From Okamejei kenojei (lineage: Eukaryota): DNA of 64,000 nucleotides. The number at the start of each line of letters is the position of its first letter. The stretch's first letter is position 1. Positions 29,486 through 63,432 of the stretch are shown here, piece after piece. The stretch spans positions 248,001 to 312,000 of the forward strand of contig JAVHYY010000292.1 in assembly GCA_035221665.1 (NCBI GenBank), in the 5' to 3' direction. The notes beneath the pieces are model-generated. The model made no database searches. It had not been told where the DNA came from and saw only the letters and a list, made by a program, of their open reading frames with translations. The translations under genes were made by a program, and so were the position numbers.

Positions 29486-31432
29486 CTACCACTCCCTCCC
29501 CATTCGCCCCCACACCCCGGTTCTCTGCCCTCTCTCACCTGTGCCTCAGCTGAACCATAATTCAATTTGTTTCATTATATCAAATTAACATGTAGACAAA
29601 GCTCTTTCGAGAGCCTTTGTTAATTATCCATTCACAGGACTATCAGTGAGCAAATTCCAGAACATAGCGCTCCCTGGGTGTGAAGAAAATCTCACCTCGC
29701 CTCTGGATTTTTTAGGAATCACCCCACATCTGTTTCTTCTGTTTGCTCAACTCCCACTGGGACCAGTTTCACGTTCTCTCCATGAAAGCCCCTGCTAAAG
29801 TTGAATATCTCCCCACAAGTTTACTCACCGTCTGTTGTCCACACACCGCTCTGTTGTCTGTGATCGTATGTTAGGCAAATCTATGTGAGGCTTAGATAGG
29901 GTGGAGCGTCCGATCCCTTTCCTCAGTCCCATGTTTTTTGTGTTATTTTCGAAATATAACTATTTTAATAAAGGAGATTATACGAAAGATGAAATCTCAT
30001 GACATTTAAAAGTCATTGATAAGTAATCAATTATTTATCAATGCGATTTAATTCAATGCGCACATTGCGATTGCCAATGTGACCACAGAAGACGATAGAC
30101 GCGTATTTATGAGGTTCACCTTTGCCTTTTGCAAGTTCTATGTAGGTTTTGCATAAGATGAATCCGAGGAATTCGTTGATGGTTTCTGGAAGTACTTTCA
30201 TAGTGTTATTAATCGAATAATACACGGTTGCAAATAAAGACAGAAACATCTGCTTTCGCTAAATTGTAACCCTCACTGTGTGACTTTGTGGCAGACAGCC
30301 ACCGGTCTGCTGATTATCTGTCCGTTCGCAAAGGAAAAAATCCTTTATGAGTGTAAACGTCAGGAACTTGTTCTGTCTCTGTAATAGTCCTTGACTGTAG
30401 TTGCTGCAGTTACTGGGGTTTTTTGTATAAGGCGTAATATTCCTGCGATGTGATGGTTTCATCCATAGAGTAATGTGACGACAAAATGTCCAGGTCAACA
30501 ATACCGACCAAGACGCACATCTAAACTCGCCACGTGTGTGCACGTCCGGCCAACATTCCTCTAAACCTTTCAAACCCATGTACCTGTCAACATTTTATAC
30601 AATACTGTAAATTTATGTGCCTTGACAACTTTCACGGGCAGCTCGCTCCACATCAGACTCGGTGTGAATAGTTGACCATCATGTCAAGTCGTAATATTAC
30701 CCACTCATCTTCAACCTCTGCCGTCTAATTTTTCATATTTTATACATCTCTGTAAACTCACATCCAACTAGCAATTTGTCTTTGTTCTCAAGAACCTGCG
30801 GGTCACTGCGGAACTTAAATTCTGGGTAGCGTGCAAACGACATAAAAATGGAGAACCGAAGGAGGTCTGTTGATTTTCTATTTGTTATTCTGTGGATTAT
30901 TATAATATTAAGAGTCTGCTATTTCGGGGTGTCCCTAAATGCATTTGAATGCACTATTCAGGATGTTTTTTTTTGTGTCTGTAATCGTTACATTTATTTG
31001 TCCGTGAAATGAGTTTCGGCTCCAGCTTCCAAGCTGCTCTGCACAAACTCTTGTACACAACTCAGACTTCAGCAAGAGCGTCGGATATTTCGTTTAGCGA
31101 GCAGTTAATTGTGCGTGATAACCACGGGAATGTCGCTGCCGGTGGTGAAAGACGTGGTTGGTGCATTACGATTAGAGACGTGGAGTCATGGAGTATATAC
31201 TGCGTGGAAACAGGACCCATCAGGCCCAACTTGCCCACGATGACCAACATACCCCAACCACACTTATCCACCTGTCTACGTTTGGTCCTTATCTCTCTAA
31301 ACTTATCACATCCCTGTACCTGAACATTAACTTCACTACCAATTTCCATCCTGTATTCAAATTCACTTGGACCATCTCCAATATCTCCCTTCCGTTTCTT
31401 GATCTCATCGTCTCCATCACAAGATTTAGACT

Positions 31433-34400
31433 GGGTTACACAAAAAGCTGGAGAAACTCAGCGGGTGCAGCAGCATCTAAGGAGCGAAGGAGATAGGCCG
31501 ACGTTCGGGTCGAGACCCTTCTCAGACTGGTCAGGGATCAGGGAAACGAGAGATATAGACGGTGATGTGGAGAGATAAAGAACAATGAATGAAAGATATG
31601 CAAAAAAAATCGATGATAAAGGGAACATGCCATTGTAAGCTGTTTGTGGTGTGAAAATGAGAAGCTAGTGCGACTAGGGTGGGGGAGGGAGATAGAGATA
31701 GAGGGAATGCCAGGGCCCGAGAGGTCTGAGGGAGAGGTGGGAAGGGGAGGAGACAGCAAGGGTTAACAGAAGGGTTAACTCGATACCACAGCCACATCTG
31801 CTTCCTCGGGGCTTGCCTGCGCCTCCATCTCATACCCCGTGGATTCCAGCTCCAATTCTCTGCTTCCCAGTTCGGACCCCAGCCGCACTATCGGTACCGA
31901 CTGGCTATCTGCCGCCACACTGTACAATTCTCCAACCGGGCACTAAGATCCACCCTGGTTGCTATGCGCCGACACCCAGCAGGACCTATCTCGCATTGAC
32001 TCTCCCGAAACTTCGGGCCTCACTCACCCAGACCTGCAACGGACCCCAACTACACTACATCCTCCCGGAAGATCCCACCGCTTCAATCAACAATTCCTGT
32101 CCCACCTTACCCGCCACCAAGGACCTGAAATTAGCCCGCCTCCAGGCCGTTCCAGCCACCGACAATCGACCGACTCGACCGCCCGCAGGCCCCGGGCCCC
32201 CACTCTGGCCCGAGCCGCCGGCCTGAGTCCCCCCGACGCCATCTTGTCCACTAGGAGCGCCTCCAGACTCACCAGGACGCCGCCTTCACCGACCTCCACG
32301 CAGATGCTGCCGCCGACCTCCACTGCCTACTGATGACGCCCAGCCCCCGCTGCCTGCCCGGTAACTATTTATATCTCCCCCTCCCCGATTCCACCGCCCA
32401 TCACCAGCGCAACGGACTGCCAAACCTCGCCGCCATTTCAGAATCCCCCCCCCGGGACCACCTAACCCCATCACCGTACCAGGCTCAACCAGCATCGCCT
32501 GTGTACTGGCCCGCCGAATGACCACAGCCGCCACACCGGGCCCATCCAGCATCGCCGGTGTACTGGGCCCCGCCGAACACACCGTGCCCACCCGGGCCCA
32601 CATCGCCGCGGGCGGTGTAAGAGCTGGGCCCGCCGGTAACAGCCGCAGCCCCGCCTCACCTTGCATCGCCCGCCGGACCAGGGCTCCCCGAACACGGCCG
32701 CCGCACCACACCCCACAATCATCATGGCCGCCTCACCGTCGGAACCGCCCACCACCCGCCCACCAGGACCTCCAACGCATCGCCGCCCCCGCCGACCCCG
32801 ACTCCACTGCCCGCGGAATCCCACCTTCGGGCCGCCGACCCACGAGACACCACCGCCCTCCAGCAGCCCGCAGCCGCTGCCCCTCACCTGCAGACTGGAC
32901 TCTGCAGTGGCCTGAACCTCCACGTTGCTAACTCCTCCCACCACACATGGGTCCTAGTGCCTGTCTCCCCCAGCCCCAGTAACCTTAGTGGCTATTCCAC
33001 TGGGTCTTCCCCATCCCCCCCTACCATGTAACCCTTGCTCTTCCCCACCCACACCACAGCCCCCATAACCCCCCCACCCCCTGACCACCCTCCACCCCCC
33101 CCACCACACAAAAAACGCTCCATCCTCATTCACTCACCTGCCTTCCTCCAGCCACAAAGGCCCCCATCCTTGCCGCATGTTCACCATCCCCCTGCTGTAC
33201 CTCCCCCTCTCCGACACCAACGGATCCTGTCCCTCAGCAGAGGTCTTAACCTTTGTCCCCCCTCCGTCCCCACCTCAATGAGTTTCCGCGCCCACCACGA
33301 CTTGGAGCTCTTCTAAAACCGTCGCCTCCGCCTCACAGCGTTCTTCTTCCACGGGAAGAAGTCCTCGCCCCCCACTGATGATCCCTTTTCCTGTCCTCCC
33401 ACGTACCCCCTCCACTTGGACCCCCCCTCGTAAGCCTTCCGGCTCTAGAACTATTTATCCAGAACTGCCGTCGGGACATCAACCGCCGCCTGACTTCTCC
33501 ACTCCCCTGTCTCACTCCAATCTCTCCAGCCCCGAACGTACTGCCATCGACTCACTCCCGTAACAACCCAGACTGGGTTATCAAACCCACCGACAAGGGA
33601 GGTGCCGTGGTAGTCTGGCGCGTCGATCTCTACAAAGCGGGCCGCGCGCCAACTCTCGGACACTTCCTCCTACTTACCCCTGGACCAGACCCCCACTCAC
33701 GAACACCAGCCACCATCTCGAGCACCGATAACCGACTTCATCAGCTCTGGCTCCCTACCCCCCTGAGCCTCCGACCTCATCGTTTCCCAGCGCCCGCACG
33801 GCCCGATTTTACCTTCTCCCCAAAAATCCACAAACCCGACTGCCCTGGCAGACCCATTGTCTCTGCCTGTTCGAGCCCCACCGAACACCATTTCTACATA
33901 CCATGACGCCATCCTAATCCCCCTATGTTAAAGTTCCCTCCCCCACCTATGTTCAAGACACCTCAGACACTCTCCGTCGCTCCGTGCATTTCCATTCTCC
34001 AGGCCCCCATCCTCTCATCTTTACCAATGGACGTCCAGTCACTCTTCACCTCCATCCCCCACCAGGACGGTCTCAAAGCCCTCCGTCTTTCCTCGACCAG
34101 AGGAGCAACCCCATACCGACCACTGACACCCTTTCCTCCGCCTATCAGAGTTGGTCCTTACCCTCAATAACTTCTCTTTGATTCCTCCCATTTCCTCACA
34201 AATACAAGGTGTAGCTATGGGGCACACGCATATGGCCCCAGCTACGCTTGCCCTCTTGTTGGGGTACGTCGAACAGTGCTTGTTCTCGCGTACCAGGTCC
34301 CCATCCCCGACCTCTACCTCTGTTACATCGACGACTGCTTTGGTGTCACCTCCTGCACCCACACACAAGGCTTACTGACTGACTTCATTCATTTCACCAC

Positions 34401-35836
34401 CAACTTCCATCCGGCACTCATAATACACTTGGGACCATTTCCCGACATTGTCCCTACCATGGTTCCTTGACCTCACCCATCTCCCATTGCAGGTGAATAC
34501 ACTCCCCTGACCGACAATCCACGTACAAACCAGCTGACTCCCACAGCTACCTGACTACTCTTCCTTCCCACCCTGCGAGTTCCTGTAAGGACTCCATCCC
34601 CTATTCCCCAATTCCTCCGTCCTAGCGCTACGCCGCATCTGCTCCCAGGATTGAGGTGTTCCACACCAGGTCATCACAAATGGCCTCATTCTTCAGAGAA
34701 CGGGGATTCCCCTCCCCCCACTATTGATGAGGCTCGCACCATGGTCTCCTCCATAGGTACCCCGCAACCAACAGCCCTCTCTCCCCATCTCTCATTCGCA
34801 AACAGGGCAGAGTCCCCCTGGTCTCACCTTTCACCCCACCAGCCGGCCGAAATACAGACACATAGTCCTCCACCAGTTTTCGCCACCTCCAACGTGACCC
34901 CTCTCCACCCGCCAACCTTCCCATCTCCCCCCCTGTCTGCCTTCCACAAAGACCCACTCCCTTCCGCAACATCCCTTTGTCAATTCTTCATTCTTTCCCT
35001 CCAACCTCCCCGCTTTACTAAAACCCTTCCCCCGGGCACTTTCCCTTGCAACCGCAAGAAATGCAACACTTTCCCTTCACCTCCCCCCTCCACTCCCTTT
35101 CCGAGGACCCAAGCAGTCCTTCCAGGTCCTGACAGAGGTTCACCTGCACCTCCTCCAACCCTCATCTACTGTGCACTCCGCTGCTCCAGATGCCAGTGAT
35201 AGGATCTATATGCGGTGAGACCAAGCGGAGGCTTGCGGCGGATCGTTTCGCCGAACACCTCCGCCTCGGTCCCGCAATAACCAACCCGACCTCCCGGTGG
35301 GCTTAGCTCTAGCACTTCAACATCCCCCTCCCATTCCGTATCCGACCTCTCGGTCCTGGGGCCTCCTCCACGGCCAGAGTGAGCAACACCGCAGTTGGAG
35401 GAACAGCACCTCATATTCCGCTTTGGGAGTCTGCATCCTTTGGCTTGAACATTTGAATTTTCTCAATTCTGTTAACCCTGCTGTCTCCTCCCCTTCCCAC
35501 CTCTCCCTCAGCCCTCGGGCCCTGGCATTCCTCTCTCTCTATCTCCCTCCCCCACCCTAGTCGCACTAGCTTCTCATTTTCACACCACAAACAGCTTACA
35601 ATGGCTTGTTCCCTTTATCATCGATACTTTTTTGCATATCTTTCATTCATTGTTCTTTATCTCTCCACATCACCGTCTATATCTCTCGTTTCCCTGATCC
35701 CTGACCAGTCTGAAGAAGGGTCTCGACCCGAAACGTCGCCTATCTCCTTCGCTCCTTAGATGCTGCTGCACCCGCTGAGTTTCTCCAGCTTTTTGTGTAA
35801 CCCTCGATTCTCCAGCATCTGCAGTTCCTTCTTTAA
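31433..35836 (+). mobile_element. Near-full-length Neptune-type Penelope-like retroelement with inverted pLTRs and a 15-bp TSD
   Basis: 31433-31771 is the reverse complement of 35467-35803; ~33 nt tail; TSD cacaagatttagact at 31418-31432 and 35837-35851; N-terminal HICFLGACLRLHLIPRG, YIDDC RT, PCNRKKCNT linker, GIY-YIG; many indels. Confidence 0.93.
35710..35737 (+). ncRNA. Minimal hammerhead ribozyme motif in Penelope pLTR
   Basis: CUGAAGA-A-GGGU(CUCG)ACCC-GAAAC-GUC: both core boxes, helix II and a GUC cleavage triplet. Confidence 0.75.
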
Positions 35837-37865
35837 CACAAGATTTAGACTACCGGCTGACATCCATAATAAACCTGCTGACTCCCAAAACTATCGGGAC
35901 GCCACTTCTACCCACCCTGCTTCCTGCAAAGATTCTATCCCCAACTCCCAATTCCTCCCGCTAGGTCGCATCAAAGCCCAAAGTGAGGTGTTCCATACCA
36001 GTACATCTGAGATGTCCTCATTCTACAGGGAACGGGGGTTCCCATCTTCCATCATAGATGATGCCCTCACTCGGGTCATCTAGATATCCCGCAGCTGCGC
36101 TCTTGCTCCCACTGGGGGAGTCGTAACAGGGACAGAGTTCCCCTCGTCCTCACCTTTTCTCTCCATCAGCCGTCGCATACAGCACATAATCCTCCGACAT
36201 TTGCGCCACCTCCAACGGGATCCCATCACTAGGCAAATCTTCCCGTTTCCACCCCTTTCCGCCTTCCTCAGAGACGGTTCCCTCCGCAACTCACTGGTTA
36301 GCTCATCCCTCCCCACCCAAACCACCCCACCCCCAGGTACTTTCCCCTGCAACCGCGGGAGAAGCAACATTTGTGCCTATACCTCCTTCGTCGACTGCGT
36401 CCAAGGACCCCCCCCCCGACAGTTCTCTCCAGGTGCGGCAGAGTTCTCCCACTTGCGCCTCCTCCAACGGCATCTACCGTATCAGCTGGTCCAGATATGG
36501 ACTCCTATATATTGGCGAGACCAAGCGCAGGCTTCGCGATCGTTTTGCAGAACCGCTCAGCTCAATCCACATAGGCCTTCGCGATCTCCCGGTTGCTAAA
36601 CACTTTAACTCCCCCTGCCATTCCCATATTGACCTTTCTGTCCTGGGCCTCCTCCACTGTCACGATGAGGCCCAACGCAAATTGGAGGAACAGCACCTCA
36701 TATGTCGCTGGGTCAGTTACCAACCCAGTAGTGTGAATATTGATTTCTCTAACTACAAGTAACCCTTGCTACCCCCTCACTCTCCGTCCCTCCCCCACCC
36801 CGTTCTCTGACTAGTTTTACTGTCCTCTTGATTAATTTTACTGGTTGTATGCCTCGTTGTCGCCTTCACCTCAGCCAACAATGAACCAATCTAGATTTCA
36901 TTGATAAACATCTGCTTTGATGTGTTGTTTTCTCACCTTACCCTTCCATGTCTCTAGTCCCTCCCCTGGCTCTCAGGCTGAAGAAGGGTAACGACCCAAA
37001 ATGTCACCCATTCACTCTCTCCAGAGATGCTGCTTATCCCGCCGAGTTTCTCCAGCATTTTGTGTCTATCTTCATGTGCCTGTCCAAATGTTTGTTTCTA
37101 AAAAAAGCAATTCATTCCATACACCTACCACCCTTTGCGTACACGACGTTGCCCTCGGCTTTCTATTAAATCTCCCCCCCCCCCCCCCCCCCACACACAC
37201 CTGAAACCTACACTAGGTAAAACAACTCTGCCTCCATCCTATAGTCCTCTCATGATCCTGTACACCTCCATAAAATCACCCCTCATCCTCCTGCGCTCCG
37301 AGGCTTAATGTCCAAGCCTTCTCAATCTCCCCCTATAGCTCAAGCACTCGAGTCCTGTCAACATCCTGGTAAATCGTCTCTGCACACTTTCCAGTTGAAC
37401 AACATCTTTCCGATTAACAACATTTTCCGAGACCAGATTATAACATTCGTCTACAGAGCTGTGTAATGTGTTGCCGATATGATTCCAGGATATTGGGGCG
37501 TGCCAACCAGACCAGACGATATACAGAGAGAAGAGTAGAATGACCGTCAGAAACTTTCCCCACATGGACAGGGAGAGGGAGCATGTGATGCAAAGTTGTT
37601 AAATTCGACGTAAACTCTTGAAGCAGCGACGACCCTGATGGAAGGTGAGATGAGTACGTTTCGAGATGTTTCAGAGCGGAGCAGCAGCAGGAAGGTTTTA
37701 AAGAGCGTCCTGTAAACAAATGGGGTGGTGTGGTTCACGCCAGCAGGCGGAACAGAGCAGAACAGCGGCCGGCTGGGTTATTTTGATATGCGCATTGAAC
37801 GGCACAACAGCCAATAAGGAAATTAAATGCTATTTAACGGAACGGTCATTTAGGAGCTGACATAT

Positions 37866-39560: not shown

Positions 39561-40489
39561 GAAGGGTTAATTAATATGGAAGATAAAAGTAATGAGATTT
39601 GGAAATTAGTCAGTGATTTTCTTTTGTTGAAACAACAAGTAGTTAGGGTTCAGAATGGCCCATCCCGGGTTGTAATGGAGGCAGATTGAAAGATGTCAAA
39701 GGCGATGTGGGTCAGTATCTGAAAGAAAATAATCTGCAGAGCTGTGAGAGAGACAAGTAACAAATGTAGCTGGATTGATCTTAAATAGAGCCAATGTGAA
39801 CTCAGTGGGGAACTTGGTCTCCTTCTGTGCACCGTTACCGTGTTAATTTGAAAATGCGCCTCACAATCCCACAAAAATAAACTCCAATGATACATCCAAT
39901 TTAGTTTTCCATTAATTTTATTGTTCATCAAAGTTCATTTCAAAGCTGAATCGCAAGGGCCTCGTTGATCAGCAGCGACTGCCTACTTGGAAGGCGACCT
40001 ACAGGGATTCTCTTGGGCTCCATTTGCCATGTCACTTCCACAGTCCAGGCACATATCATTATAGGTCTCTCTATTCATTTGCTCATTTTAGACATCGTTG
40101 GATGAAACAAAGAATTGGCGATAGCCGTTTAATGTGGATAAGAAGCTTAAGTTAACAACGTTCGGGAACATAGAACAATACAGCATAGAAACAGGACCTT
40201 CCACCCATAACATCTGTGTTCACCATGATACCGATCAACTTTTACCTTACTGAACATGATCAATGAGCTTATCCAAAATCCCGAAATGTCACTATCTACC
40301 ACCACTGTTAGACAATTCTAGACACACGTCACTTTTTAGTAAAGGGAATAAATGAAAGCTTCTAATTTGTCCTCATTCATTCACAATCCTCGAATCCATA
40401 CTGTACTTTAGGCATCGTAAAATCAGAAAGTCTTGAAAAGAACAAAGTAATTTGAGATAGCAGTTTACAGCCAACATCAACATGATGAG

Positions 40490-40814
40490 GAACACAAAAT
40501 GCTGGAGAAACTCAGCGGGTGCAGCAGCATCTATGGAGGAGTAGAAAGGAAAAAGAAGGAGGAGGAGCCCGAGGGCTGAGGGAGAGGTGGGAAGGGGAGG
40601 AGACAGCCTTCCTACCTCTCCCTCTGCCCTCGGCCTCCTCCTCCTTTTTCCTTTCTCCTCCCCGCCTCCCCCCACCCCCTATCAGTATGAAGAAGGGTTG
40701 CTGCCTGAAACATTGCCTATTTCCTTCGCTCCATAGATGCTGCTGCACCCGCTGAGTTTCTCTAGCATTTTGTCTACCTTCGATTTTCCAGCATCTGCAG
40801 TTCCTTATTAAACT
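40490..40814. mobile_element. Non-autonomous fold-back Penelope derivative
   Basis: caaaatgctggagaaactcagcgggtgcagcagcatctatgga is inverted at 40730-40772, followed by the tail; tcaacat appears on both sides. Confidence 0.85.
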
Positions 40815-40954
40815 CAACATCATTATCTCCCTTGTTATCATCTCAAGTACATTTACCCACATGTTGCAAGTAAGAAGAAAACTAGCAAAGCTATCTAACT
40901 GCATAATAGCAAGTTACGTTGTTTTTCTCTTCTACTAATTATAGGTAAATATAT

Positions 40955-41338
40955 ACACAAAATGCTGCAGTAACTCAGCAGGTCAGGCAGCATCTGTGGA
41001 GAAAAGGAAAGGTGATGTTTCGGGCCGAGACTCTTCATCAGACCGAGAGTCAGGGGAGAGGGGAACGAGAGATGAGAAAAGGTACCTAGAACAAATCAGA
41101 GCACGCATCGATGACCAAGGATAGATGGAGTCCACAATGGTCCATTGTTGGCCATGGGAAAGGTGATAACGAGTAAAAGGGACAGTAAAACTCAGCAGGC
41201 CGATCAGTCCGAAGAAGGGTCTCTACCCGAAACGTCACCCATTCCTTCTCTCCAGAGATGCTGCCTGTCCCGCTGAGTTACTCCAGCATTTTGCGACTAC
41301 TCCAGTGTAAACCAGCATCTGCAGTTCCTTCCTACACA
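40955..41338. mobile_element. Non-autonomous fold-back Penelope derivative with hammerhead motifs on both strands
   Basis: Inverted arms; minus motif at 41014-41041 and plus motif at 41209-41236; tail aaccagcatctgcagttcctt. Confidence 0.85.
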
Positions 41339-41682
41339 TCTCAGTTATAGGTTATCTTTCTCTGATCTCGGGGGGAGGGGGGGGGATCGGTTTATGTAGA
41401 TAATATCGCCTCCCCCCCATCACCATCACCATCAATCAGAGTGAGGAAGGGTCCCTGTTAACCCCCTGAGTTAGACAGGCAGTTTAAGTCCTTTTTTCAC
41501 ACAGAGGTTGGTGGGTGCCTGGAACACACTGGTGGTGGAGGCTGATGCCATAGTGGGGTTTATGAGGCTTTTTGGATAGGCAGGGAAGAGGGAATGCAGA
41601 AGGGAGAATCTTCTTCCCGGTGGCTATCAAACTGTACAACTCCTCCCCCTTCTGTTGTGGTGTGGATTGAGTGACTCTAAAC

Positions 41683-42740: not shown

Positions 42741-45700
42741 TGTGTGTCGGCATTGTGGGTGTATGTCACATTCCATTTTTACGTACACATTTTTAATAAC
42801 ATCCTCCCCCGCCCCCAATATTTCAAAATGTTAAAAAAAATCAAAATGCTCTCACCCATAGAATGTTGGTGAGCGTTCCATTGTGTGATGTCACAATGCC
42901 CAATGCTCACAGATGCCCAATCGGAAAGGATCTCATTTACATATGCCCCAGCACCAGCCCCGCCCACCGCAGCCTGTGTTGAAGCGGGTGATCACGTGTG
43001 TGGGAATAGAGAAAGAGGATTGGGGCTGATAGGGAGTGGGGAATAGATGGACTGCCCCTACCCCTCCCCTCCCTCTCTACCTCCCCTCTCTTTCCCTTCT
43101 CTCCCCCCACCCCTCTCCCCCTCCCCCCATCCCTCTCCCCCTCCCTCCCCTACCCCCTCCCCTCTCTCTCCCCCTGCCTTCCCCCTCCATCGCCTCTCTC
43201 CCCCACCCCTTTTTCCGTACCCCTCTCTCCCTCTTCCACCACACCCCCTACCCCTCTCCCCCTCCCCATTCTTCCACTTCTCTCCCCCTTCCCCACCACT
43301 CTCCCTCCCCACCTCTCTCCCTCCCCCACCCTATCTCTCCCCTCCATCCCTCCCACAACCCCTTTCCCCTACACCTCTTTCCCCTTCCACCACTCCCTCT
43401 CCCTCACTCCCACCACTCCCCCTACCTCCCCACTCATCCACTTCTCTCTCCTCATCCCCCAGCCCTCCCAATCTCCCTCCCCCACATTTCTCTCTCCCCC
43501 CTTCCCTCTCCCTTTCCACTCTCTCAGCTCTCCCCCTCCCCCACTCTTCCCCCTCCCCCTACCAATCTTCCCCTCCCTCCACACTCTTCGCTCTCTCTCC
43601 GCCTACCCCTCTCCCCCTCCCTCCACACTCTTCCCCCTCTCTCCCCTTCCCCCTCTCCCTCCTCCCTCCCCTCCCTCCATCACCCCTCCTCCCTCTCTCG
43701 CCATTCCCCACCCCTCTCACCCCCTCCCCCACCCCTCTCTCACCCCCTCCCGGAACCCTCTCTCACCCCCTCCTCCACCCCACCTCCCTCCTCCCCTTCC
43801 CCTCTCTCCATCTCCCTCTCTCCTCACCCCTCTCCCTCCTCCCCTCCCATGCTCTCTCTCCCCCGTCCCCATCCTTCACCCTCATCTCCCCCCACCCCTT
43901 CCCCTCTCTCTTGCACCACTCCCTGCTACCCCTCCTCCCCTCTCCCTCCCCCTCCCCCTCCCCACCTCTCTCCCTCCCCTTTCTCTCTCCCACTCCTCTC
44001 CCTCCTCCCTCCCTCCTTCACCCCTCTCTCCGCTTTCCCACCCCTCTCTCCCTTTCCCCTCTCTCAGCCCCTCCCAGAACCATCTCTCACCCCCTCCTCC
44101 ACCCCCTCTCCTCCCCTTCCCCTCCCCATCTCCCTCTCTCCTCACCCCTCTTCCTCCTCCGCTCCCACCCTCTCTCTCTCCCCCTCCCCCATCCTTCACC
44201 CTCATCTCCCCCCCACCCCCTTCCCCTCTCTCTTGCACCACTCCGTGCTACCCCTCCTCCCCTCACTCCCCACTCTTCCCCTCTCCCTCCCCTCCCCACC
44301 TCTCTCCCTCCCCTTGCTCTCTCCCCCTCCTCTCTCTCCCCTCCTCGCTCTCCCCTGCACCCTCGCCTCTCTATCTCCCCCTCCCATCCCCCTTCCTCCC
44401 CTCTCTCCTCCCACCCCTTTTTCCCTACCCCTCTCTCCCTCGCCCACCACTCCCCCCTACCCCTCTCTCCCTCCCTCCCCACTCTTCCACGTCTCTCCCG
44501 CCTTCCCCCACCCTCTCCCTCCCACCTCTCTCTCTCCCCACCCTCTCTCCCCTTCCCTCCCTATCTCCCCCACCCCTTTCCCCTACCCCTCTCTCCCTCT
44601 TCCACCACACCCCCCTCCCCCTCCCTCTCTCCCACTTCCACCACTCCCCCGTACGCCTCTCTCCTCCCTCCCCACTCTTCGGCGTCTCTGTCCCCATCCC
44701 CCAGCTTTCCCCATCTCCCTCCCCCACCCCTCTCTCTCCCCCCTCCCTTCCCTCTCCCTCCCCACTCTTCCCCCCCTACCACTCTCCCCCTCCCTCCACA
44801 CTCTTCCCTCTTGTAAAGATGGTACACGGACACCATGGAATCTTTACTACTTTAATGAACACATTACTGCCCTAGCTGTACGTGGTCTGTCACGATCACT
44901 AGAGAGCGAGCTAGGGGTGTGAAGGTTACAATTATACTAACTGGTGAGGGAGTGGTTAGCATGGACATCGTCACTATCAATTAAAGGTGTATACACATTT
45001 CATCTACACCTCTCTCTCCCCCTAACCCTCTCCCTCCGCCCTCCCTCCTCCCTCTCTCCCCTTCCTTCCCTCTCGCCCCTTCCCCACCCCTCTCGCACCC
45101 CCTCCCCGAACCCTCTATAACCCCCTCCCCACCCCTGTTCACCTCCATCTTCCCTCCACCCCCCTTCCCCTCTTTCTTGCACCTCTCCCTGCTATCCCTC
45201 TCCCCCTCACTCCTCACTCTTCCCCTCTCTCTCCCCCTACCCACCTCTCCCTCCCCTTTCTCTCTCTCCCCCTCCCCTCTCTCCCTCCTCTCTCTCCCAC
45301 TCTATCCCTCTCCTCTCTCCCCCCCTCCACTCTCCCATCCACCTCTCCCCTCCCCCCTCTCCCCTCCCCCTCTTCCCCTCTCCCCTCCCCTTCCCCCACC
45401 CCACTACCCTCCTTTTCCCTACCCGTCTCCTCCTTTACCCTCCCAGCTCTGCTCCCCCGCCCCCATACTCATCCCCCTCTCTCTCCCTCCCCTCCCCACG
45501 TCTCCCCCTCCCCACTCTCTCCCCATCTCCCCTCCCCACTCTCTTTCCATCTCCAGCTCCCTCTCCCCTCCTCCTCCCCACCCTCGCCCGCTCACCCGCA
45601 CATCCTTTCCTCCCCTCCCCCCCCCCCGTGTGTGCGGGGTGGTAGTTAGTGTGTGTGACGCGACATGCTGCCCCCCCCCCCCCAACCGCACATTGGGGGA

Positions 45701-48700
45701 ACAGACCCAACGGGTCTGCACTTGGTCTAGTCTACTTTTAAAACTGTGTGTGTGTGTGTGTGTGTGTCGGCTGTGTGCGTGGTTCTATGTCACATTCCTT
45801 TTTTTTTCAGATAAGTTCTTTGGCTTTTGATTCCATGGTCCGCCAAAACCAGATGCGAAAACCCCGTTATTTTTTCCATTTCACTAGCGATTTCGCTTCA
45901 ACATGCACGGATTTACTCCTCAATACATTTAGACATTTTGATGTACACATTTTTTAATAAAATCATCCCCATCCCCCCCACACACTCACTCATTTAAAAA
46001 AATCGAAACGGCACCTCACGAGCTGCTTACGTCACAATCACACATGCCGACCAATCCCAAGCCGCTTCTCCCTCTTCATTTGGCAGCGCCCCCCCCCCCC
46101 CCCTCCAACTACGCTCCGCGCCTCCCGCAGCTCGAAACGCCCGCGCGCGCGCCCGCTCAAAACACGCCCCTTCTCAAAATGCTCTGCAGATCGGGAGGAG
46201 AGATAAGGCATCAGTTCCGCTCTCACGCCGGCATGCTCTGCAGATCGGGAGATGAGATAAGGAGATGGGCGGGCGGGGTAAGGCTCGATCCTGGGGAGGT
46301 GAAGAGGGGGAGTCGGGGGATTGAGGGAGAGGGGGGAATGGGGGAGGTGACGAGGGAGAGTGTGGGAATAAAGGGAGAGGAGTGGGGGTGAGAGGGAGTG
46401 GGGAATAGATGGACTGCCCCCCCTTCTCCCTCTCCCTCCCTCCCCACTCTTTCCCCTCTCTCCCCCTACCTCTCTCACCTTCTCTCCCCTACCCCATCAC
46501 CTACTCGCTCCCCACCCTCCCTTCACCCCACCTCCACCTCCCTCCCCTCTTCCCCTTCCCTTCCCCCCTCTCCGCCCCCTCTCCCCCTCCCATCTCTCTC
46601 ACCCATCCCCCCCCCTCACCCACCCTCCCTCCCTCACCCAACCTCCCCTTCCTCCTCCCCTCCACCCCCTCTCCCTCTGTCTCTTGCCCTTCTGTCTGCC
46701 CCTTTCTATTTCTCTCTCCCCATTCTCTCTCTGCTCTCATTCTCTACCCCCTCTCTCGCTCCCTCACCCCCCTATCTCGCTCTCTCTCTCCCTCTCGCCC
46801 CCCTCTCTCACCCCCTCTCTCTCTCACCCCCTCTCTCACCCCCTCCCTCTCTCACCCTCCCCCTCTCTCTCTCACCTTCCCCCTCTCTCTCTCTCTCTCT
46901 CCCTCCCCCACTCTCTCTTTCCTCCCCCCCTCTCTCTCCCTCCCCCCTCGCTCTCTCTCCCACCCCCTCCCCCTCTCTCTCCCTCACCCCTTCTCTCTCC
47001 CCTCCCCCACTCTCTCTCCCCCCCCCACTCTCTCTCTCCCATCTCTCTCCCCGCTGTTTCCCCTCCCCCTCTCTCCCCTCCCCCTCTCTCTCCCCCTTCC
47101 TCTCCCCTATACCCCCTTCCCCCATCGCTCCACACCCTCCCCTCCACCCCTCCCCCCTTCCCTCCACCCCTTCCTCTCCCCCTCCCGTCTCACCACATCT
47201 CCCCACTTCCATCCCCCATCTCCCCTTCTCTCTCCTCCCATCTCTCTCTCCCCTCCTCCCCCACCCTCCCTCTCCTCCCTCTCCTCCTCCTCCCTCCCTC
47301 TCCTCCTCCTCTTGTCCACTCCCCCCCTCTCCCCCTGTCTCTTTCCCTTCTGTCTCTGCCTCTCTCACTGTCTCTCCCCATTCTCTCTCTGCCCTCACTC
47401 TCTACCCCCCTCTCCCTCTCTAGACACATCTGCGAGTTGGGGGCTATGCGTCGGTGGCGAGGGCGGTTATGGGGTAAAAGGATCTAATTAATAATATTAA
47501 TATAACATCAAGGGGGTAGTTAGTGTGTGGGAGGTTAGTGTGTGTGACGCCGCATGCCCCCCCTCCCGCAAACGCGCGATGGCGGAACAGACCCAACGGA
47601 TCTGCACTTGGTCTAGTATACTTTTAAAACTGTGTGTGTGTGTGTGTGTCGGCCGTGTGTGTGGGTGTATGTCACATTCCATTTTTTTTCAGATAAGATT
47701 TTTGGCTTTTGTTTCCATGGTCTGCCAAAACCAGACCCTCAAACGCCGTAATTTTTTCCATTTTGCTAGACATTACACTTTTACATTCACAAATGCACTA
47801 CTCATTACATTTAGACATTTTTATGTAGACAATTTTAATAATATCCCCCCCCACCCCAATATTTCAAAATGTAAAAAAAAATCAAACTGCTCTCACCCAT
47901 AGACTGTTGGTAAACGTTCCATTGTGTAATGTCACAATGCCCAATGCTCACAGATGTCCAATCCTCCCTTCCCTCTCCCCACTCTTCCCCCTCTCTCCTC
48001 TCTCTCCCTCCCATCCCCACTCTTCCCGCTCCCCCTACCATTCTACCCCTCCCTCCACACTCTGCCCTCTCTCTCCCCCTACCCCTCTCCCTACCCCTCT
48101 CCCCTCCCTCCACACTCTTCCCCCTCTCAACCTTTCCCCCTCTCCCTCCTCCCCCCCTCCTCCCTCTCTCTGCTTCTCCCACCCCTCTCTCCCCCCTCCC
48201 CACCCCTCTCTCACCCCCTCCCCAAAACCTCTCTCACCCCCTCCCCCACACCCTCTCCTCCTCCCCTTCCCCCTCTCTCCGCCCTCCTCCCTCTCTCCTC
48301 ACCCCTCACCCTCCTCCCCTCCCACCCCCTCTCTCCCCCCTCCCCACCCATCGTCACCCCATCTCCCACCCCTTGCCCCCTTTCGTGCACCACTCCCTGC
48401 TACCCCTCTCCCCCTCACTACCCACTCTTCCCCTCTCCCTCCCCTCCCCACCTCTCTCCCCTTTCTCTCTCTCTCTCCCCCTCCTCTCTCTCTCCTCTCT
48501 CTCCCCCTTCCAATCTTTCCCTGTCCTCTCTCTCCCCCTCCACTCCCTCTCCAGCTCTCCCCTCCCCCTCTTTCTCCCCCTCTCCTCTCACCTCCCCCTC
48601 TCCCATTCCTCCCCTCTTCTCCCCCACCCCTCTCCTCTCACCTCGCCCTCTTCCCCTCTCCACCCCTTCCCCCATCCCTCTCTACCCCCTTCACCCCTCT

Positions 48701-49504
48701 ACCACCCCCTACCCCTGTCTCCTCCTTTACCCTCCCTGCTCTCCTCCCCTCTCCATCCTCTCTCTCCCTTCCCCCTCTCCTCTCCTCTCCTCCCCACTCT
48801 CCCCCATCTCCCCCTCCCCACTCTCCCACCATCTCCCCCTCCCCACTCTCTCCCCATCTCCCTCTCCCCTCCTCCCCACCCTCCCCGTCTCCCCTCCCCT
48901 TCCCCAGCCCTTTTCCCCCCCCTCACCCACCCTCCCCCTCCCACTCTACCACCCCGTTCCCCCTACCCCTGTCTCCTCCTTTACCCTCTGCGCTCTCCTC
49001 CCCTCCCCCCAACCTCATCCCCTTCTCTCTCCCTTCACCCTCCCCTCTCCCTCCCCACTCTCTCCCCATCTCCCCCTCCCCATTCTCTCTCCTCATTTCC
49101 CCCTCCCCCTCCCCACTCTCTCTCCATCTCCATCTCCATCTCCCCTCCTCCCCACCCTCCCCCCTCATCCCCACATCCTCTCCTTCTCCCCTCTACCTCT
49201 GTCTCTTGCCCTTCTGTCTCTGCCTCTCTCTCTCTGTCTCTCCCCATTCCCTCTCTGCCCTCACTGTCTACCCCCCCCCCCCCCTCCCCCCAGACACGCC
49301 TGTGAGTTGGGGGCTATGTATCAGTGGGTAGGGCGGTTATGGGTTAAAGGGAGCAAATTAATAATATTCATATAATATCAAGGGGGGTAGTTAGCGTGTG
49401 TGCGGGGTGGTAGTTAGTGTGTGTGACGCGACATGCTGCCCCCCCCCCCCCCCTCGCAACTTCACGTTGGGGGAACAGACCCAACGGGTCTGCACTTGGT
49501 CTAG
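42741..49504 (+). mobile_element. Tandem array of three non-autonomous Helitrons with internal C/T tracts (units ~42741-45730, 45731-47616, 47617-49504)
   Basis: Each unit ends in the hairpin cagaccc-aac-gggtctg, then cacttggt, then CTAG; the next unit starts TCTACTTTTAAAACT or TATACTTTTAAAACT; the last CTAG is followed by host T. Confidence 0.88.
44812..45008. mobile_element. 197-bp solo LTR inserted in Helitron unit 1
   Basis: TGTAAAGAT...ATCTACA termini; cctct on both sides (44807-44811 and 45009-45013); complex sequence embedded in a C/T tract. Confidence 0.7.
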
Positions 49505-53855: not shown

Positions 53856-54171
53856 CAACACCTCTGCTCTGTTTGCAATAACAAACCGGATCTCCCGGTG
53901 GCTCAGCACTTCAACTCCCCCTCCCATTCCGAATCCGTCCTTTCTGTCCTGGTCCTCCTCCATGGCCAGAGTGAGTCCCACCGTAAATTGGCTGAGCAGC
54001 ACCTCATTTTTCGCTTGGGTACTCTACACCCCAGCGGTATGAACATTAACTTCTCCAATTTTAGGTAATCCCTGCTTTCTCCTTCTTTCCCCTCCCCTCC
54101 CCAGCTCTCCCACAGCCCACTGTCTCCGCCTCTTCCTTTCTTCTAACCGCCCCTCCCACTCCCACATCAGT

Positions 54172-54199
54172 CTGAAGAAGGGTCTCGACCCGAAACGTC
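54172..54199 (+). ncRNA. Minimal hammerhead ribozyme motif in Penelope pLTR
   Basis: Identical 28-mer to 35710-35737, although the upstream pLTR sequence differs. Confidence 0.75.
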
Positions 54200-55104
54200 G
54201 CCTATTTCGTTCCTCCATAGATGCCGCCTCACCCGCTGAGTTTCCCCAGCATTTTTGTCTACCTTCGATTTTCCAGCATCTGCAGTTCCTTCTTAAACAT
54301 AACACATAACAATATCTCATTCGCAGTCTGTCAGTTACATCTCTTCGGTGTCCACAAGGGCCAGTAAATCGCCGTTGTTATTTCCTCTTTTGCAAACAGT
54401 CCGCGCCACTCACGTTTCCCTGTCTGAAACAGAAAGCATCCACTGCCATACACCCGCAAACACCAACATAACCCCTGGCAATTCCACTTCAAATTTACAC
54501 ATTCCATAACCCTGTGTTGATAACTCTCAACTCTCTCTGGATTCCCACTTCCGAGTCAACTGTTGAAACACCTTTGATCTTCCTCGGATTACGGACCAAC
54601 ATTCTGGTCAGCACCCAACCCTCGTGCGGGGATACAAACTATACTCGTTTTTGCGGACACTCCCATGGCGTTCGTAACGATATCCCGGTAAAAGTATAAA
54701 GGTTTCAAAGGTCTTTTATTGTCACATGTACCAATTAAGGTACAGCGATATGCGAATTACCATACAGCCATACGAAAAAACGAGCAACAAGACGCGCAAC
54801 TATATAAACGTTAACATAAGCATCCACCACACCGGATTCCCCACATTTCTCACTGCGATGGAAGGCAAAAAAACTTCAATCTACTTCCCCTTTAATGATG
54901 GGATTCATCGTATTCACAACCATTTGATATTTTTCCGCGTAAACCCCTTTCAGGCACCGCATTAGTGAATTGTAATCCGCCGCCCCCCCCCCCCCCCCCC
55001 CCCACCTCAAATGCCGGAGCCTTCCAGATCCTCGCCACTGGCGAGTTGCAAACAGCCCCTGACAGAAAGCTTCAGATGCTGGGAATGTAAAATGTACAGT
55101 CATT

Positions 55105-59443: not shown

Positions 59444-60226
59444 ACTGTCAAATATGCATTTTCGAAAACCGTTCTCAGCGAACTAAGTATTGAACAATTA
59501 TATTTTCAATAATTATATAACCATAAATCTAGATGTGGTCTTACCAGGGCAATTTATAATTGGAGTACATCATTTTGTCCAGGTTATTCAAATTTCCCTG
59601 CAGGGCGACAAGGCATATTGTCATTTAATTTATCTTTATTATTTGTCCTAGACGATATTATTGATGGTTCATTCAGTGATGATGTATGAGCGGGGCTGAG
59701 AAATTAAAAGGGAATGATCACCATGTGGGGACGTAGTTTTGCCCCCAAATAGTCAACGGGAATTGGAAGCGTTAATATGCCGGGAGATCGCAGGCAGCTG
59801 CTGAGTTGTCACAGTTCGGGGATATTTACTTTCCCAATATAGACTGGGACTGACATAGCCATAGATTCATGTCCTAGAGCACGGAAACAGGCCCTTCGGT
59901 CCAACTCATCCATGCCGATCATCGTGCTGAGGGATTAGATGGGATGGAATTTGTCAAATATGTTCAGGGAAGTTTCATTTGGCAAAATGCAGAGGGACCT
60001 ACAAGGCAGAGGGCAGTGCTTGACCTATTCTTGGGCAATTGGGAAGGGCACGGGATGTGTCAGTGGACGAGCCTTTTTTTGGACCAGGGGGGCGCAGTTC
60101 CCACACACACGAACAAACTATTCACGCAAACTTGATAATAAGTAACAGAAAAGCACTTATGATTTAATGATGTTATTGGCAACTTAGCAAAGGTTTTGTC
60201 AACGTGGTGAACATTATCCACTTTAA

Positions 60227-62778
60227 GGGTACACAAAAAGCTGGAGAAACTCAGCGGGTGCGCAGCATCTAAGGAGCGAAGGAGATAGGCGACGTTTCGG
60301 GTCGAGACCTTCTTCAGACTGGTCAGGGATCAGGGAAACGAGAGATTAGATGGTGATGTGGAGAGATAAGGAACAATGAGTGAAAGATATGCAAAAAAGT
60401 ATCGGTGATAAAGGGAACAAGCCATGTAAGCTGTTTGTGGTGTGAAAATGAGAAGCTGGTGCGACTTGGGTGGGGGGAGGGAGATAGAGATAGAGGGAAT
60501 GCCAGGGCCCGAGGGCTGAGGGAGAGGTGGGAAGGGGAGGAGACAGCAAGGGTTAACAGAATTGAGAAAATTCAATATTCAAGCCCAAAGGATGCAGACT
60601 CCCAAGCGGAATATGAGGTGCTGTTCCTCCAGCTTGCGGTGTTGGTCACTCTGGCCGTGGAGGAGGCCAGGACCGAGAGGTCGGATGTGGAATGGGAGGG
60701 GTTTTGAAGTGCTGAGCCACCGGGAGGTCGGGTTGGTTATTGCGGACCGAGCGGAGGTGTTCGGCGAGCGATCGCCAAGCCTCCGCTTGGTCTCACGATA
60801 TAGATCATCTGGCATCTGGAGCAACGGATGCAGTAGATGAGGTTGGAGGAGGTGCAGGTGAACCTCTGTCGGACCTGGAAGGACTGCTTGGGTCCCTGAA
60901 AGGAGTGGAGGGGGGAGGTGAAGGGACACGTGTTGCATTTCTTGCGGTTGCAAGGGAAAGTGCCCGGGGAAGGGGTAGAGTGGGAGGGGAGGGAAGAATG
61001 GACAAGGGAGTTGCGGAGGGAGCGGTCTTTGCGGAAGGCAGACAGGGGGGGAGATGGGAAGATGTGGCGGGTGGAGGGTCACGTTGGAGGTGGCGAAATT
61101 GGCGGAGGACTATATGTTGTATTTGCCGGCTGGTGGGGTGAAAGGTGAGGACCAGGGGGACTCTGCCCTGTTTGCGAGTGGGGGAATGGGGAGCGAGGGC
61201 AGTGTTGCGGGTATGGAGGAGACCCTGGTGCGAGCCTCATCAATAGTGGGGGAGGGGAATCCCCGTTCTCTGAAGAATGAGGCCATTTGTGATGACCTGG
61301 TGTGGAACACCTCATCCTGGGAGCAGATGCGGCGTAGACGGAGGAATTGGGAATAGGGGATGGAGTCCTTACAGGAAGCAGGGTGGGAGGAGGAGTAGTC
61401 CAGGTAGCTGTGGGAGTCAGTAGGTTTGTAGTGGATGTCGGTCAGGAGTGTATCACCTGCAATAGAGATGGTGAGGTCAAGGATGGTAGGGAAGTGTCGG
61501 AAATGGTCCAAGTGTATTTGAGTGCCGGATGGAAGTTGGTGGTGAAATGAATGAAGTCAGTCAGTTGTGTGTGGGTGCAGGAGGTGACACCAAAGCAGTC
61601 GTCGATGTAACGGAGGTAGAGGTCGGGGATGGGGCCCTGGTATGCCGAGAACAAGGATTGTTCGACATACCCAACAAAGAGGCAAGCGTAGCTGGGGCCC
61701 ATGCGTGTGCCCATAGCTACGCCTTGTGTTTGGAGGAAATGGGAGGAATCAAAAGAGAAGTTATTGAGGGTGAGGACCAACTCTGCTAGGCGGAGGAGGG
61801 TTGTCAGTGGACGGGTATGGGTTGCTCCTCTGGTCGAGGAAAAACCGGACGGCTTTGAGACCGTCCTGGTGGGGGATGGAGGTGTAGAGTGACTGGACGT
61901 CCATGGTAAAGATGAGAGGATGGGGGCCTGGGGAATGGAATGCACGGAGCCGACGGAGAGTGTCTGAAGTGTCTTGAACATAGGTAGGGAGGGATTTAAC
62001 AAAGGGGGATAGGATGGCGTCAAGGTATGTGGAAATGTGTTCGGTGGGGCACGAACAGGCAGAGACAATGGGTCTGCCAGGGCAGTCGGGTTTGTGGATT
62101 TTGGGGAGAAGGTAAAATCGGGCCGTGCGGGGCTGAGAAACGATGAGGTCGGAGGCTCGGGGGGGTAGGGAGCCGGAGCTGATGAAAGTCAGTTATGGTG
62201 CTCGAGATGGCGGCCTGGTGTTCGTCAGTGGGGTCATGGTCCAGGCGTAAGTAGGAGGAGGTGTCCGAGAGTTGGCGCGCGGCCTCCGCTTTGTAGAGAT
62301 CGACGCGCCAGACTACCACGGCACCTCCCTTGTCGGCGGGTTTGATAACCCAGTCTGGGTTGTTACGGAGTGAGTCGATGGCAGCACGTTCAGGGCTGGA
62401 GAGATTGGAGTGAGACAGGGGGGTGGAGAAGTCGAGGCGGTTGATGTCCCGACGGCAGTTCTGGATAAATAGTTCTACAGCCGGAAGACTACGAGGGGGG
62501 TTCCAAGTGGAGGCGGTACGTGGGAGACAGGAAAAGGGATCATCAGTGGGGGGCGAGGGCTTCTTCCCATGGAAGAACGCTGTGAGGCGGAGGCGACGGT
62601 AGAAGAGCTCCAAGTCGTGGTGGGCGCGGAACTCATTGAGGTGGGGACGGAGGGGGACAAAGGTGAGACCTCTGCTGAGGACAGACCGTTCGATGTCGGA
62701 GAGGGGGAGGTCCGGGGGGATGGTGAACACGCGGCAAGGATGGGGGTTGTGGCCGGAGGAAGGCAGGTGAGTGGACTG
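60227..62778 (-). mobile_element. Young 5'-truncated Neptune-type Penelope-like element with a 14-bp TSD
   Basis: TSD attatccactttaa at 60213-60226 and 62779-62792; IKPADKGGAVVVW, QTQGVAMGTRMGPSYA, YLRYIDDC, ETKRRLGDR; pLTR nearly identical to that of the 31433 element; hammerhead motif at 60291-60317. Confidence 0.94.
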
Positions 62779-63432
62779 ATTATCCACTTTAATATGTGAC
62801 GGATCTGCTCCGCCATCTACTGGCTGCGTCTCTTGTGACTTTCTTCAAACTGATAATTAGGTTTGAGCTAAACAAAAAGCGCAAACTGCTGGATAGCTCC
62901 TCGGGGCAGCGAACTTGGCCCAGCTGCTTCGTGAATGACATTCATACAGTGTAGGGATGCGCATTATGTTCACTTCCATTTGCAACTTTTCACCAAACAG
63001 GGCAGTTCATTTGTACAGCAAACATGATCTAAGCAGCATCTTGTCGATTACCATGTGCCCCGCTAGTGCTGGCACTGATCATCTTCAACAAGAAGGAGTT
63101 AAACTACATTTCGTTGATATTCATTTGGATTACTGTTGGCTCCACATTCACTTCTCTGGAGGTTAGCATTGAGCAGTAACTCAACTGGACCAGCCATGTA
63201 AATTCAACAAAAGTAGTTCAGGGGGAGGGGTTATGAATTCTACAGCGAACAACTCACCTTTTGACAAACCCAAGCCAATACAAGTTCCACCCTGCCCCAG
63301 AGAGGAGAAGTGTAAATGTCCTCCAATTGCCAGCTTAGTAATATATCACCAATGACCAAGACCACCAATAAACTTTAATTATCTCAGTGATCTTCCAATC
63401 TATCCATTGCCTCAGCCATCAGCATATCATGA

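What the first reader, a model, noticed from the sequence alone, without database searches (positions are those of the whole stretch)
35710..35737. Window is seeded with minimal hammerhead ribozyme motifs carried by Penelope pLTRs
Seen: CTGAAGAAGGGTCTCGACCCGAAACGTC occurs exactly at 35710 and 54172. Variants lie on + at ~6405, 17602, 24338, 25557, 36978, 40687 and 41209, and on - at ~1196, 13017, 22059, 31500, 41014, 50905 and 60291. The motif is better conserved than the pLTR sequence upstream of it across subfamilies. Established: CUGANGA/GAAA/NUH is the hammerhead core, and minimal hammerheads are known in Penelope-like pLTRs. Notable here: an extra A after A9, a helix I of only ~2 bp, and helix III reduced to the palindrome ACGU with no loop. 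Inference: it can cleave only as a dimer (tandem or in trans), or serves as a protein-recognition fold.
Basis: partly seen in the sequence, partly recalled or inferred. Interest (0 to 1): 0.7.

Follow-up and report, generated by a model that had tools for sequence, protein, structure and literature searches.

The report
Penelope retrotransposon tips carrying minimal hammerheads
The motif is a known kind of tiny hammerhead ribozyme at the end of a Penelope-like jumping gene, estimated at about a million mostly broken copies in this genome; about half of the young copies that include it begin at its front edge rather than at its predicted cut site, which likely marks where the copied RNA began.

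Summary
Observation confirmed: all 16 named copies are present, and the genome holds 48,215 exact 28-mers (about 1.1 million copies by extrapolation). The motif is the minimal hammerhead in the pseudo-LTR of a Neptune-type Penelope-like element. Intact 3,955-nt units with a 1,185-aa RT/GIY-YIG ORF and a hammerhead at both ends exist elsewhere in the genome. The three 'notable' features (extra base after A9, loopless palindromic helix III, 2-bp helix I) and dimer-only activity were published in 2014, so the kind is known. Copies decay neutrally; 38 of 264 keep a full fold. Added here: genome-wide counts in the youngest subfamily show no loss of copies at the cut site, but half end within 12 nt upstream of the core, often with an untemplated G before an initiator-like A. 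Inserted RNA was therefore uncleaved, and many templates likely began at the ribozyme's edge (a pLTR start site, about 45%). Against this: 0 of 8 full-length copies start there, and no usable RNA reads exist. This scan noted the same pile-up in other genomes.

The parts
35710..35737 (+). Minimal type I hammerhead core, C3 to C17; predicted cut between 35737 and 35738
   Evidence: Sequence; matches the published min-HHR consensus
35706..35709 (+). CAGT: 5' strand of the 2-bp helix I (35708-35709) and initiator-like / 3'-splice-site-like motif; A at 35707 is the candidate RNA start
   Evidence: C, A, G, T kept in 89, 89, 94, 94% of 47 pLTR-attached copies; 5' ends pile up here
35718..35729 (+). 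Helix II, 4 bp with 4-nt loop
   Evidence: no compensatory-change support among young copies
35733..35736 (+). Loopless palindrome ACGT (helix III, can pair only between two copies)
   Evidence: Sequence; dimer helix III adds about -3 kcal/mol in the model
35738..35836 (+). Conserved downstream segment with the PLE 'tail'; copies end at about +90..+95 or +126..+130 from C3 (inferred reverse-transcription start sites)
   Evidence: compare PMC11167929
35476..35705 (+). Pyrimidine-rich 3' pLTR between the ORF stop and the hammerhead; weak TATA-like word about 29 nt before 35707
   Evidence: Alignment to intact copy L163; the TATA-like word is read from sequence only
31778..35475 (+). Decayed, 5'-truncated ORF of the same Neptune-type element (about 90% identical to L163)
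   Evidence: blastn to L163; RVT_1 and GIY-YIG in L163
31433..31771 (-). Inverted 5' pLTR of the same insertion, with a damaged hammerhead at about 31500-31525 and the short tail
31418..31432 (+). Left copy of the 15-bp target-site duplication
35837..35851 (+). Right copy of the 15-bp target-site duplication
35846..37065 (+). Older related element into which the insertion landed; GIY-YIG remnant at 36190-36762, hammerhead at 36978
60226..62779 (-). Young 5'-truncated copy (98.6% to L163), hammerhead at about 60291-60317
54172..54302 (+). Second exact 28-mer with long tail, on a different pLTR subfamily
41209..41340 (+). Solo hammerhead+tail stub; further stubs or pLTR ends at about 1196(-), 6405(+), 13017(-), 17602(+), 22059(-), 24338(+), 25557(+), 40686(+), 41014(-), 50905(-)

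Best explanation
This is the minimal hammerhead ribozyme of a Neptune-type Penelope-like retrotransposon; it is so common because reverse transcription likely starts 65-100 nt downstream of it, and about half of the young copies that include it stop at its 5' edge, likely because the template RNA began there at a start site in the pLTR. Shown: the element, its tandem unit, target-site duplications, two discrete 3' ends, neutral decay of copies, no excess of 5' ends at the cut site, and a pile-up at -5..+1. Inferred: the inserted RNAs were uncleaved; the many ORF-less 3' pLTRs would make short capped RNAs starting about 3 nt before C3, which the element's protein would copy in trans into 95-130-nt stubs; with only AGU ahead of the core, helix I cannot exceed 2-3 bp. 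Any cleavage is predicted to need a dimer and probably the element's protein, and would remove the capped leader rather than define the inserted end. Odds: identity 0.95, uncleaved templates 0.85, start-site cause of the pile-up 0.45.
For: Intact units L163/L164: 3,955/3,954-nt spacing, hammerhead in both pLTRs, 1,185-aa ORF with a CX4CxxC linker, DKG and YIDD. Young-subfamily counts at exact spacing from a tail anchor: 54,847; +21..+28, 46,550; +1..+8, 35,898; with AGT 26,733; with CAGT 22,658; -12..-5, 17,803; -34..-27, 16,189. Loss per nt is 0.7% across the cut site, 10.9% at +1..-4, 0.4% further up. In 1.2 Mb of evenly spaced sample, 11 of 21 young copies start at -5..-1 and none at +29; 2 of 460 profile hits start at the cut. 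TSD-resolved junctions: 12 of 13 G-AGT copies have a G that is neither target nor element, against 8 of 20 with any extra bases in the other classes (p=0.004); all 5 single added bases are G. An untemplated G is read as a cap copy for L1 (PMC9341517). PLE pLTRs carry Inr-type promoters in D. virilis and A. vaga.
Against: 0 of 8 copies whose 5' hammerhead runs on into the ORF start at -5..+1; they reach -112 to -802 (one cut by the locus edge at -44), so long templates began further up. The G signal is small: 35% of non-C bases at -4 against 28% background (45% after removing passenger copies), and G-AGT versus W-AGT alone is p=0.12; terminal addition by the RT could give the same. 5' ends are spread over +1..-5 rather than at one base. 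The homologous YAG is a real 3' splice site in D. virilis. A DPE-like match at +28..+32 is imperfect and its spacing shifts in the older lineage. No raw RNA reads were available. No cleavage was measured.
Confidence: 0.6

Rival explanations
1. Same element, but the stub template is made by trimming: long or intronic transcripts are degraded 5' to 3' until the protein-bound hammerhead/tail domain (or splicing factors on the upstream pyrimidine tract and CAG) blocks the nuclease, leaving ragged ends at the fold's edge.
For: Ragged ends over +1..-5 with a low tail of ends inside the core. It explains why short and long copies behave as two pools. The upstream sequence reads like a 3' splice site in all pLTR groups, as in D. 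virilis.
Against: It does not predict the untemplated G before A-3. The free RNA is predicted not to form the hammerhead, so protection needs protein. No splice joint was seen and no element exon precedes solo copies.
Confidence: 0.22
2. The pile-up arises during copying: the RT stops, or the new cDNA folds back or joins the target by microhomology, just after passing the hammerhead, whatever the RNA's 5' end.
For: 62 of 246 copies reaching the 5' edge have an inverted partner directly upstream, and several junctions are palindromic. Microhomology of 1-3 nt is common.
Against: A structure should stall the RT at its 3' side, not its 5' edge. A stop acting at every passage with the observed 37-50% rate predicts some full-length copies starting there; 0 of 8 do (p=0.004-0.025).
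Confidence: 0.15
3. Retrozyme-like model: dimeric self-cleavage releases or circularises the RNA and defines what is inserted.
For: Proposed in PMC4209133. The core is invariant across six subfamily consensuses. Tandem units carry two hammerheads.
Against: At least 85% of anchored young copies run through the cut site; none of 21 starts there; all 8 long copies pass the 5' hammerhead uncut. Direct neighbours are few (6 of 246). The anole hammerhead was not needed for insertion.
Confidence: 0.07
4. In the young lineages the motif no longer cleaves and is kept only as a protein-binding or promoter sequence.
For: Helix I is 2 bp where the older lineage has 4-5 bp. Helix II has probability 0.00-0.11 in folded natural copies. 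The free dimer prefers a non-hammerhead duplex, -19.7 against -12.7 kcal/mol. No compensatory support in 19 copies.
Against: All catalytic positions are unchanged in the six consensuses while neighbours at +29..+48 change (9 of 20 invariant; p=0.0005). Published motifs have the same anatomy, and a protein-assisted one cleaves. This rival is compatible with the best explanation and concerns only catalysis.
Confidence: 0.3

Closest known systems
Minimal type I hammerheads (min-HHR) in pLTRs of metazoan Penelope-like elements (Cervera and de la Pena 2014, PMC4209133; main text parts 1-2 of 4 and supplement file 2 part 2 of 3 read)
   Same: CUGANGA plus one extra base, G10.1-C11.1, GAAA, palindromic 15.2-16.2 with no loop, NUH, short helix I; one per pLTR; mostly dispersed single motifs from truncated elements. 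The Culex example has the same 2-bp helix I and CGUC end.
   Different: Copy number is about 100-fold above the 4,000-9,000 they report for coelacanth and Xenopus (a different counting method). Helix II is shorter (4 bp). Cartilaginous fishes were not found in the searchable supplement (file 1 not searchable). The passages read do not describe a 5'-edge pile-up.
EN+ Penelope-like elements, Neptune/Nematis type (Craig et al. 2021, PMC8557442; passages read)
   Same: Single ORF with RT and C-terminal GIY-YIG, CX2-5CxxC linker, partial tandem with pLTRs, inverted 5' copy, optional 30-40-bp tail, hammerhead in pLTR.
   Different: No microsatellite targeting seen in the flanks inspected; clear 9-25-bp TSDs; a very large excess of 95-130-nt stubs. 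No RT tree was built.
PAc (Poseidon, Anolis carolinensis) in vitro system (Frangieh et al. 2024, PMC11167929; parts 1-2 of 4 read)
   Same: Two internal RT start sites downstream of the hammerhead giving the tail; uncleaved RNA as insertion template; no sign of ends at the cut site.
   Different: In PAc the ORF starts inside the hammerhead; here the first ATG lies 162 nt after C3. Different clade.
Animal non-LTR retrozymes (bioRxiv 10.64898/2026.07.22.740005; part 1 of 5 and passages read)
   Same: Non-autonomous, PLE-derived, hammerhead-bearing short units; reported in one chondrichthyan.
   Different: Retrozymes are head-to-tail tandem arrays; these are single or head-to-head stubs with TSDs whose ends are not set by cleavage.

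Membership tests
min-HHR of metazoan PLEs | Core CUGANGA / GAAA / NUH | tested here: met
min-HHR of metazoan PLEs | Extra base between 9 and 10.1, G10.1-C11.1 pair, palindromic 15.2-16.2 | tested here: met
min-HHR of metazoan PLEs | Located in both pLTRs of a PLE | tested here: met
   L163, L164, L166, L167, L170, L178
min-HHR of metazoan PLEs | Compensatory changes in helices I and II | tested here: inconclusive
   19 copies: 1 pair with a two-sided change, reached by 301 of 500 shuffles. The older lineage has a different, longer helix I (pairs 28/42, 24/42, 24/41, 22/41; slid controls 5-27 of about 42)
min-HHR of metazoan PLEs | Self-cleavage as a dimer or with protein | not testable with these tools
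   Folding models only
Rfam hammerhead families | Match to a curated covariance model | tested here: not met
   No hammerhead among 108 hits at E<=10; lowers only Rfam membership
EN+ PLE, Neptune/Nematis type | One ORF with RT and C-terminal GIY-YIG | tested here: met
   RVT_1 669-839 (E 5e-6) and GIY-YIG 1089-1122 (E 0.004), both under Pfam's curated cut-off; DKG and YIDD motifs
EN+ PLE, Neptune/Nematis type | CX2-5CxxC linker between RT and EN | tested here: met
   Residues 1052-1060; criterion from PMC8557442
EN+ PLE, Neptune/Nematis type | pLTRs, inverted 5' copy, optional tail, TSD | tested here: met
EN+ PLE, Neptune/Nematis type | Placement in an RT phylogeny (Neptune versus Nematis) | not tested
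   No tree built
Non-LTR retrozyme | Head-to-tail tandem units each with a hammerhead | tested here: not met
   6 of 246 direct-adjacent; neighbours within 300 nt are mostly on opposite strands, 131 against 46
Non-LTR retrozyme | Circular RNA from self-cleavage | not testable with these tools
   Only assembled contigs of uncertain type
Inr/DPE internal Pol II promoter of Penelope and LINEs | Initiator at the RNA start | tested here: inconclusive
   Inr-like word conserved, 5' ends pile up on it, added G; start site not mapped. Inr consensus is recalled
Inr/DPE internal Pol II promoter of Penelope and LINEs | DPE at fixed spacing | tested here: not met
   Imperfect match; spacing shifts by 1-2 nt in the older lineage. 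DPE consensus partly recalled, partly

The most novel reading that the evidence does not exclude
The 95-130-nt hammerhead+tail tip is a complete parasite of its own retrotransposon. A start site three bases before the catalytic core puts the ribozyme at the capped 5' end of the RNA, the tail recruits and primes the RT, and this SINE-like unit has been copied about a million times through many subfamilies. The ribozyme would then be a protein-gated decapping switch rather than a unit-length processor, and the shrinking of helix I from 5 to 2 bp would follow from the start site sitting inside it.
Probability: 0.3. Interest if true: 0.55.

Novelty: new member of a known kind. Interest (0 to 1): 0.3.

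Why it matters
The function of hammerheads in Penelope-like elements is still open (PMC8557442 says so and notes they may simply parasitise the elements). This genome gives tens of thousands of young copies, enough to show that inserted ends ignore the cut site and cluster at the ribozyme's 5' edge, and it holds intact elements for an in vitro system. The motif itself and its dimer logic are not new, and the same pile-up was noted by this scan in other genomes.

Tried and rejected
Rfam scan: no hammerhead hit. Cleavage-defined 5' ends: rejected. ORF-as-intron or back-spliced circle, suggested by a donor-like site at the ATG and the CAG before the core: the AAGT class is not a splice junction but largely passengers of two amplified insertions (11 of 30 loci repeat an earlier flank). 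No solo flank ended in element sequence as an exon would. No such joint was among the 15 of 122 joints shown. A branch point overlapping the cut site was dropped because the youngest subfamily lacks that A. DPE/MTE overlap with the core was dropped (spacing not conserved). Long-range pairing that closes the unit (fold) is only 4-5 bp conserved and absent from the consensus fold. Selection on genomic copies: not found (6.4% versus 7.5%, p=0.10). RNA evidence: 24 runs, all assembled contigs, most only guessed to be RNA; depth in the four laid mirrors genomic copy number, so expression, start sites and cleavage stay open. My first label 'Poseidon' was changed to Neptune-type on the linker motif. 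Lunse et al. 2016 is not held; I saw only its citation and the review's sentence, so I cannot say whether it lists this variant. Literature searches listed no paper on a 5'-edge pile-up, judged from listings and the passages read.

Full report
Observation. The 28-mer is exact at 35710 and 54172, and 6 sites match at up to 3 mismatches against none in 100 shuffles. The window's genome (G000, 2.76 Gb) holds 48,215 exact copies, reversed control 0. A profile of motif plus downstream sequence found 460 hits in 1.2 Mb of evenly spaced stretches (reversed control 0) and 555 in 1.4 Mb, one per 2.5 kb, or about 1.1 million genome-wide by extrapolation, partial hits included. That the host is a cartilaginous fish is my recollection of this repeat and was not tested.

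What it belongs to. The motif at 35710 is the 3' pLTR end of one 4.4-kb insertion (31433-35836): an inverted pLTR, a decayed 5'-truncated ORF, the pLTR, the hammerhead and the long tail, bounded by a 15-bp target-site duplication and nested in an older relative. A protein search of the genome led to intact copies. L163 and L164 have a 3,955/3,954-nt unit, a hammerhead in each pLTR and a 1,185-aa ORF starting 162 nt after C3. [quoted passage not shown] A CX4CxxC linker marks the Neptune/Nematis type by the criterion in PMC8557442 (passages).

What is already known. PMC4209133 (results, discussion and part of the supplement) defines the minimal hammerhead of PLE pLTRs with an extra base between 9 and 10.1 and a palindromic 15.2-16.2 pair without loop 3. 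It shows 2-bp helix I cases and reports no monomer and low dimer activity. PMC11167929 shows for an anole element that reverse transcription starts at two internal sites downstream of the hammerhead, that the hammerhead cleaves only with protein, and that cleavage is not needed for insertion. Lunse et al. 2016 could not be read; bioRxiv supplements are closed and one supplement file of PMC4209133 was not searchable, so a listing of this exact variant cannot be excluded.

Conservation. Among 264 near-complete copies from the 1.4-Mb sample, six subfamilies had 12 or more members. Their consensuses agree at 26 of 28 motif positions, 9 of 20 at +29..+48 and 31 of 41 at +49..+89 (p=0.0005 and 0.10). 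Within subfamilies, non-CpG core positions have changed in 141 of 2,190 cells (6.4%) and invariant tail positions in 651 of 8,713 (7.5%; p=0.10), and CpG positions, including G12, in 20-31%. Only 92 of 264 keep the catalytic core, and 38 of 264 also keep helix II and the palindrome. The constraint acts on the masters; the copies decay. Nineteen copies gave no compensatory-change support. An older lineage (47 copies) has a 4-5-bp helix I with different sequence on both strands, moderately above slid controls. Folding of natural young copies gives helix II a probability of 0.00-0.11, and the free dimer prefers another duplex, so activity would need help.

Where copies end. 3' ends fall at about +90..+95 or +126..+130 from C3, the PLE tail signature. 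Of 246 copies reaching the motif's 5' edge, 49 share upstream sequence with another copy (47 pLTR), 62 have an inverted partner, 6 a direct partner, and 129 stand alone. For the youngest subfamily I counted genome-wide at exact spacing from a 20-nt tail anchor: 54,847 anchor; 46,550 with +21..+28; 35,898 with +1..+8; 31,296 with GT, 26,733 with AGT and 22,658 with CAGT before the core; 17,803 with -12..-5; 16,189 with -34..-27. Loss per base, mutation included, is 0.7% across the cut site, 1.3% within the core, 10.9% at +1..-4 and 0.4% beyond -12. About 6 in 100 listed matches belong to a subfamily with another upstream sequence, which slightly inflates the drop. In the unbiased 1.2 Mb, 21 young copies started at: beyond -399 (3), -16, -5..-1 (11), +1, +3, +5, +6, +11, +16, and none at +29. 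So inserted RNA was not cut by the ribozyme, and many templates ended, or copying stopped, at its 5' edge.

Why there. CAGT is kept in about 90% of 47 pLTR-attached copies although C and A do not pair in helix I. It fits an initiator (consensus recalled; Inr-type promoters are reported in PLE pLTRs) and also a 3' splice site, which the homologous position is in D. virilis. I compared the first 30 loci of each junction class, dropping repeated flanks, inversions, duplications and copies without a TSD of 9 bp or more. That left 13 G-AGT, 9 W-AGT and 11 B-GT copies. Clean junctions were 1, 4 and 8; single added bases were G four times, none, and G once (pooled p=0.004, G-AGT versus W-AGT alone p=0.12). 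An added G is read as a copied cap in L1 work (passages). Junctions running straight from TSD into AGT exclude a spliced template for those copies. Against a simple start-site model, none of 8 copies whose 5' hammerhead continues into the ORF starts there (from 32 loci chosen by ORF similarity or length). That result also argues against a stop acting at every passage, and fits two RNA pools: short RNAs from ORF-less pLTRs and long read-through RNAs.

RNA data. Only assembled contigs were offered. Four were laid; depth followed genomic copy number and the joints shown held no splice or circle junction. Expression, start site and cleavage are untested.

Verdict. A real, very abundant new member of a known kind. 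The genome-wide evidence that insertion ends ignore the cut site and cluster at the ribozyme's edge is a useful, testable addition, seen independently by this scan in other genomes (looked up after my own counts). Interest 0.3.

Noticed in passing
window 9244-18130 (+): At least six exons each encoding one SRCR domain (Pfam E 1e-25 to 1e-34): a multi-SRCR scavenger-receptor gene whose introns hold several of the copies.
   Followed up: partly
L220, L221, L223, L226-L228, L231-L233, L242 (and L213, L214, L216): Single hammerhead+tail insertions carried as passengers in two other amplified repeats; one lineage spreads a core-breaking A13-to-C change that no subfamily consensus shows.
   Followed up: partly
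L163:2309-2320 (+): The ORF's first ATG sits in a strong 5'-splice-site-like context; no use of it was detected.
   Followed up: partly
window 52448-53881 (+): A 477-aa open RT of another non-LTR family (Pfam RVT_1 E 4e-38) inserted into a Penelope-like copy near its GIY-YIG region.
   Followed up: no
L181: A long copy matches the unit from +133 of one hammerhead to 2 nt before the next, i.e. it lacks exactly the hammerhead+tail segment at both ends.
   Followed up: no
window 40480-40815: Head-to-head pLTR fragments of purine/pyrimidine-rich sequence form a long hairpin that gives spurious miRNA matches in Rfam.
   Followed up: partly
window 43000-49400: Several kilobases of C/T-rich low-complexity sequence; N block at 14284-14677.
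   Followed up: no
old-lineage copies, e.g. L271, L280, L111, L122: An older subfamily with U at position 7, a 4-5-bp helix I and a longer helix II loop; some copies show C at position 9.
   Followed up: partly
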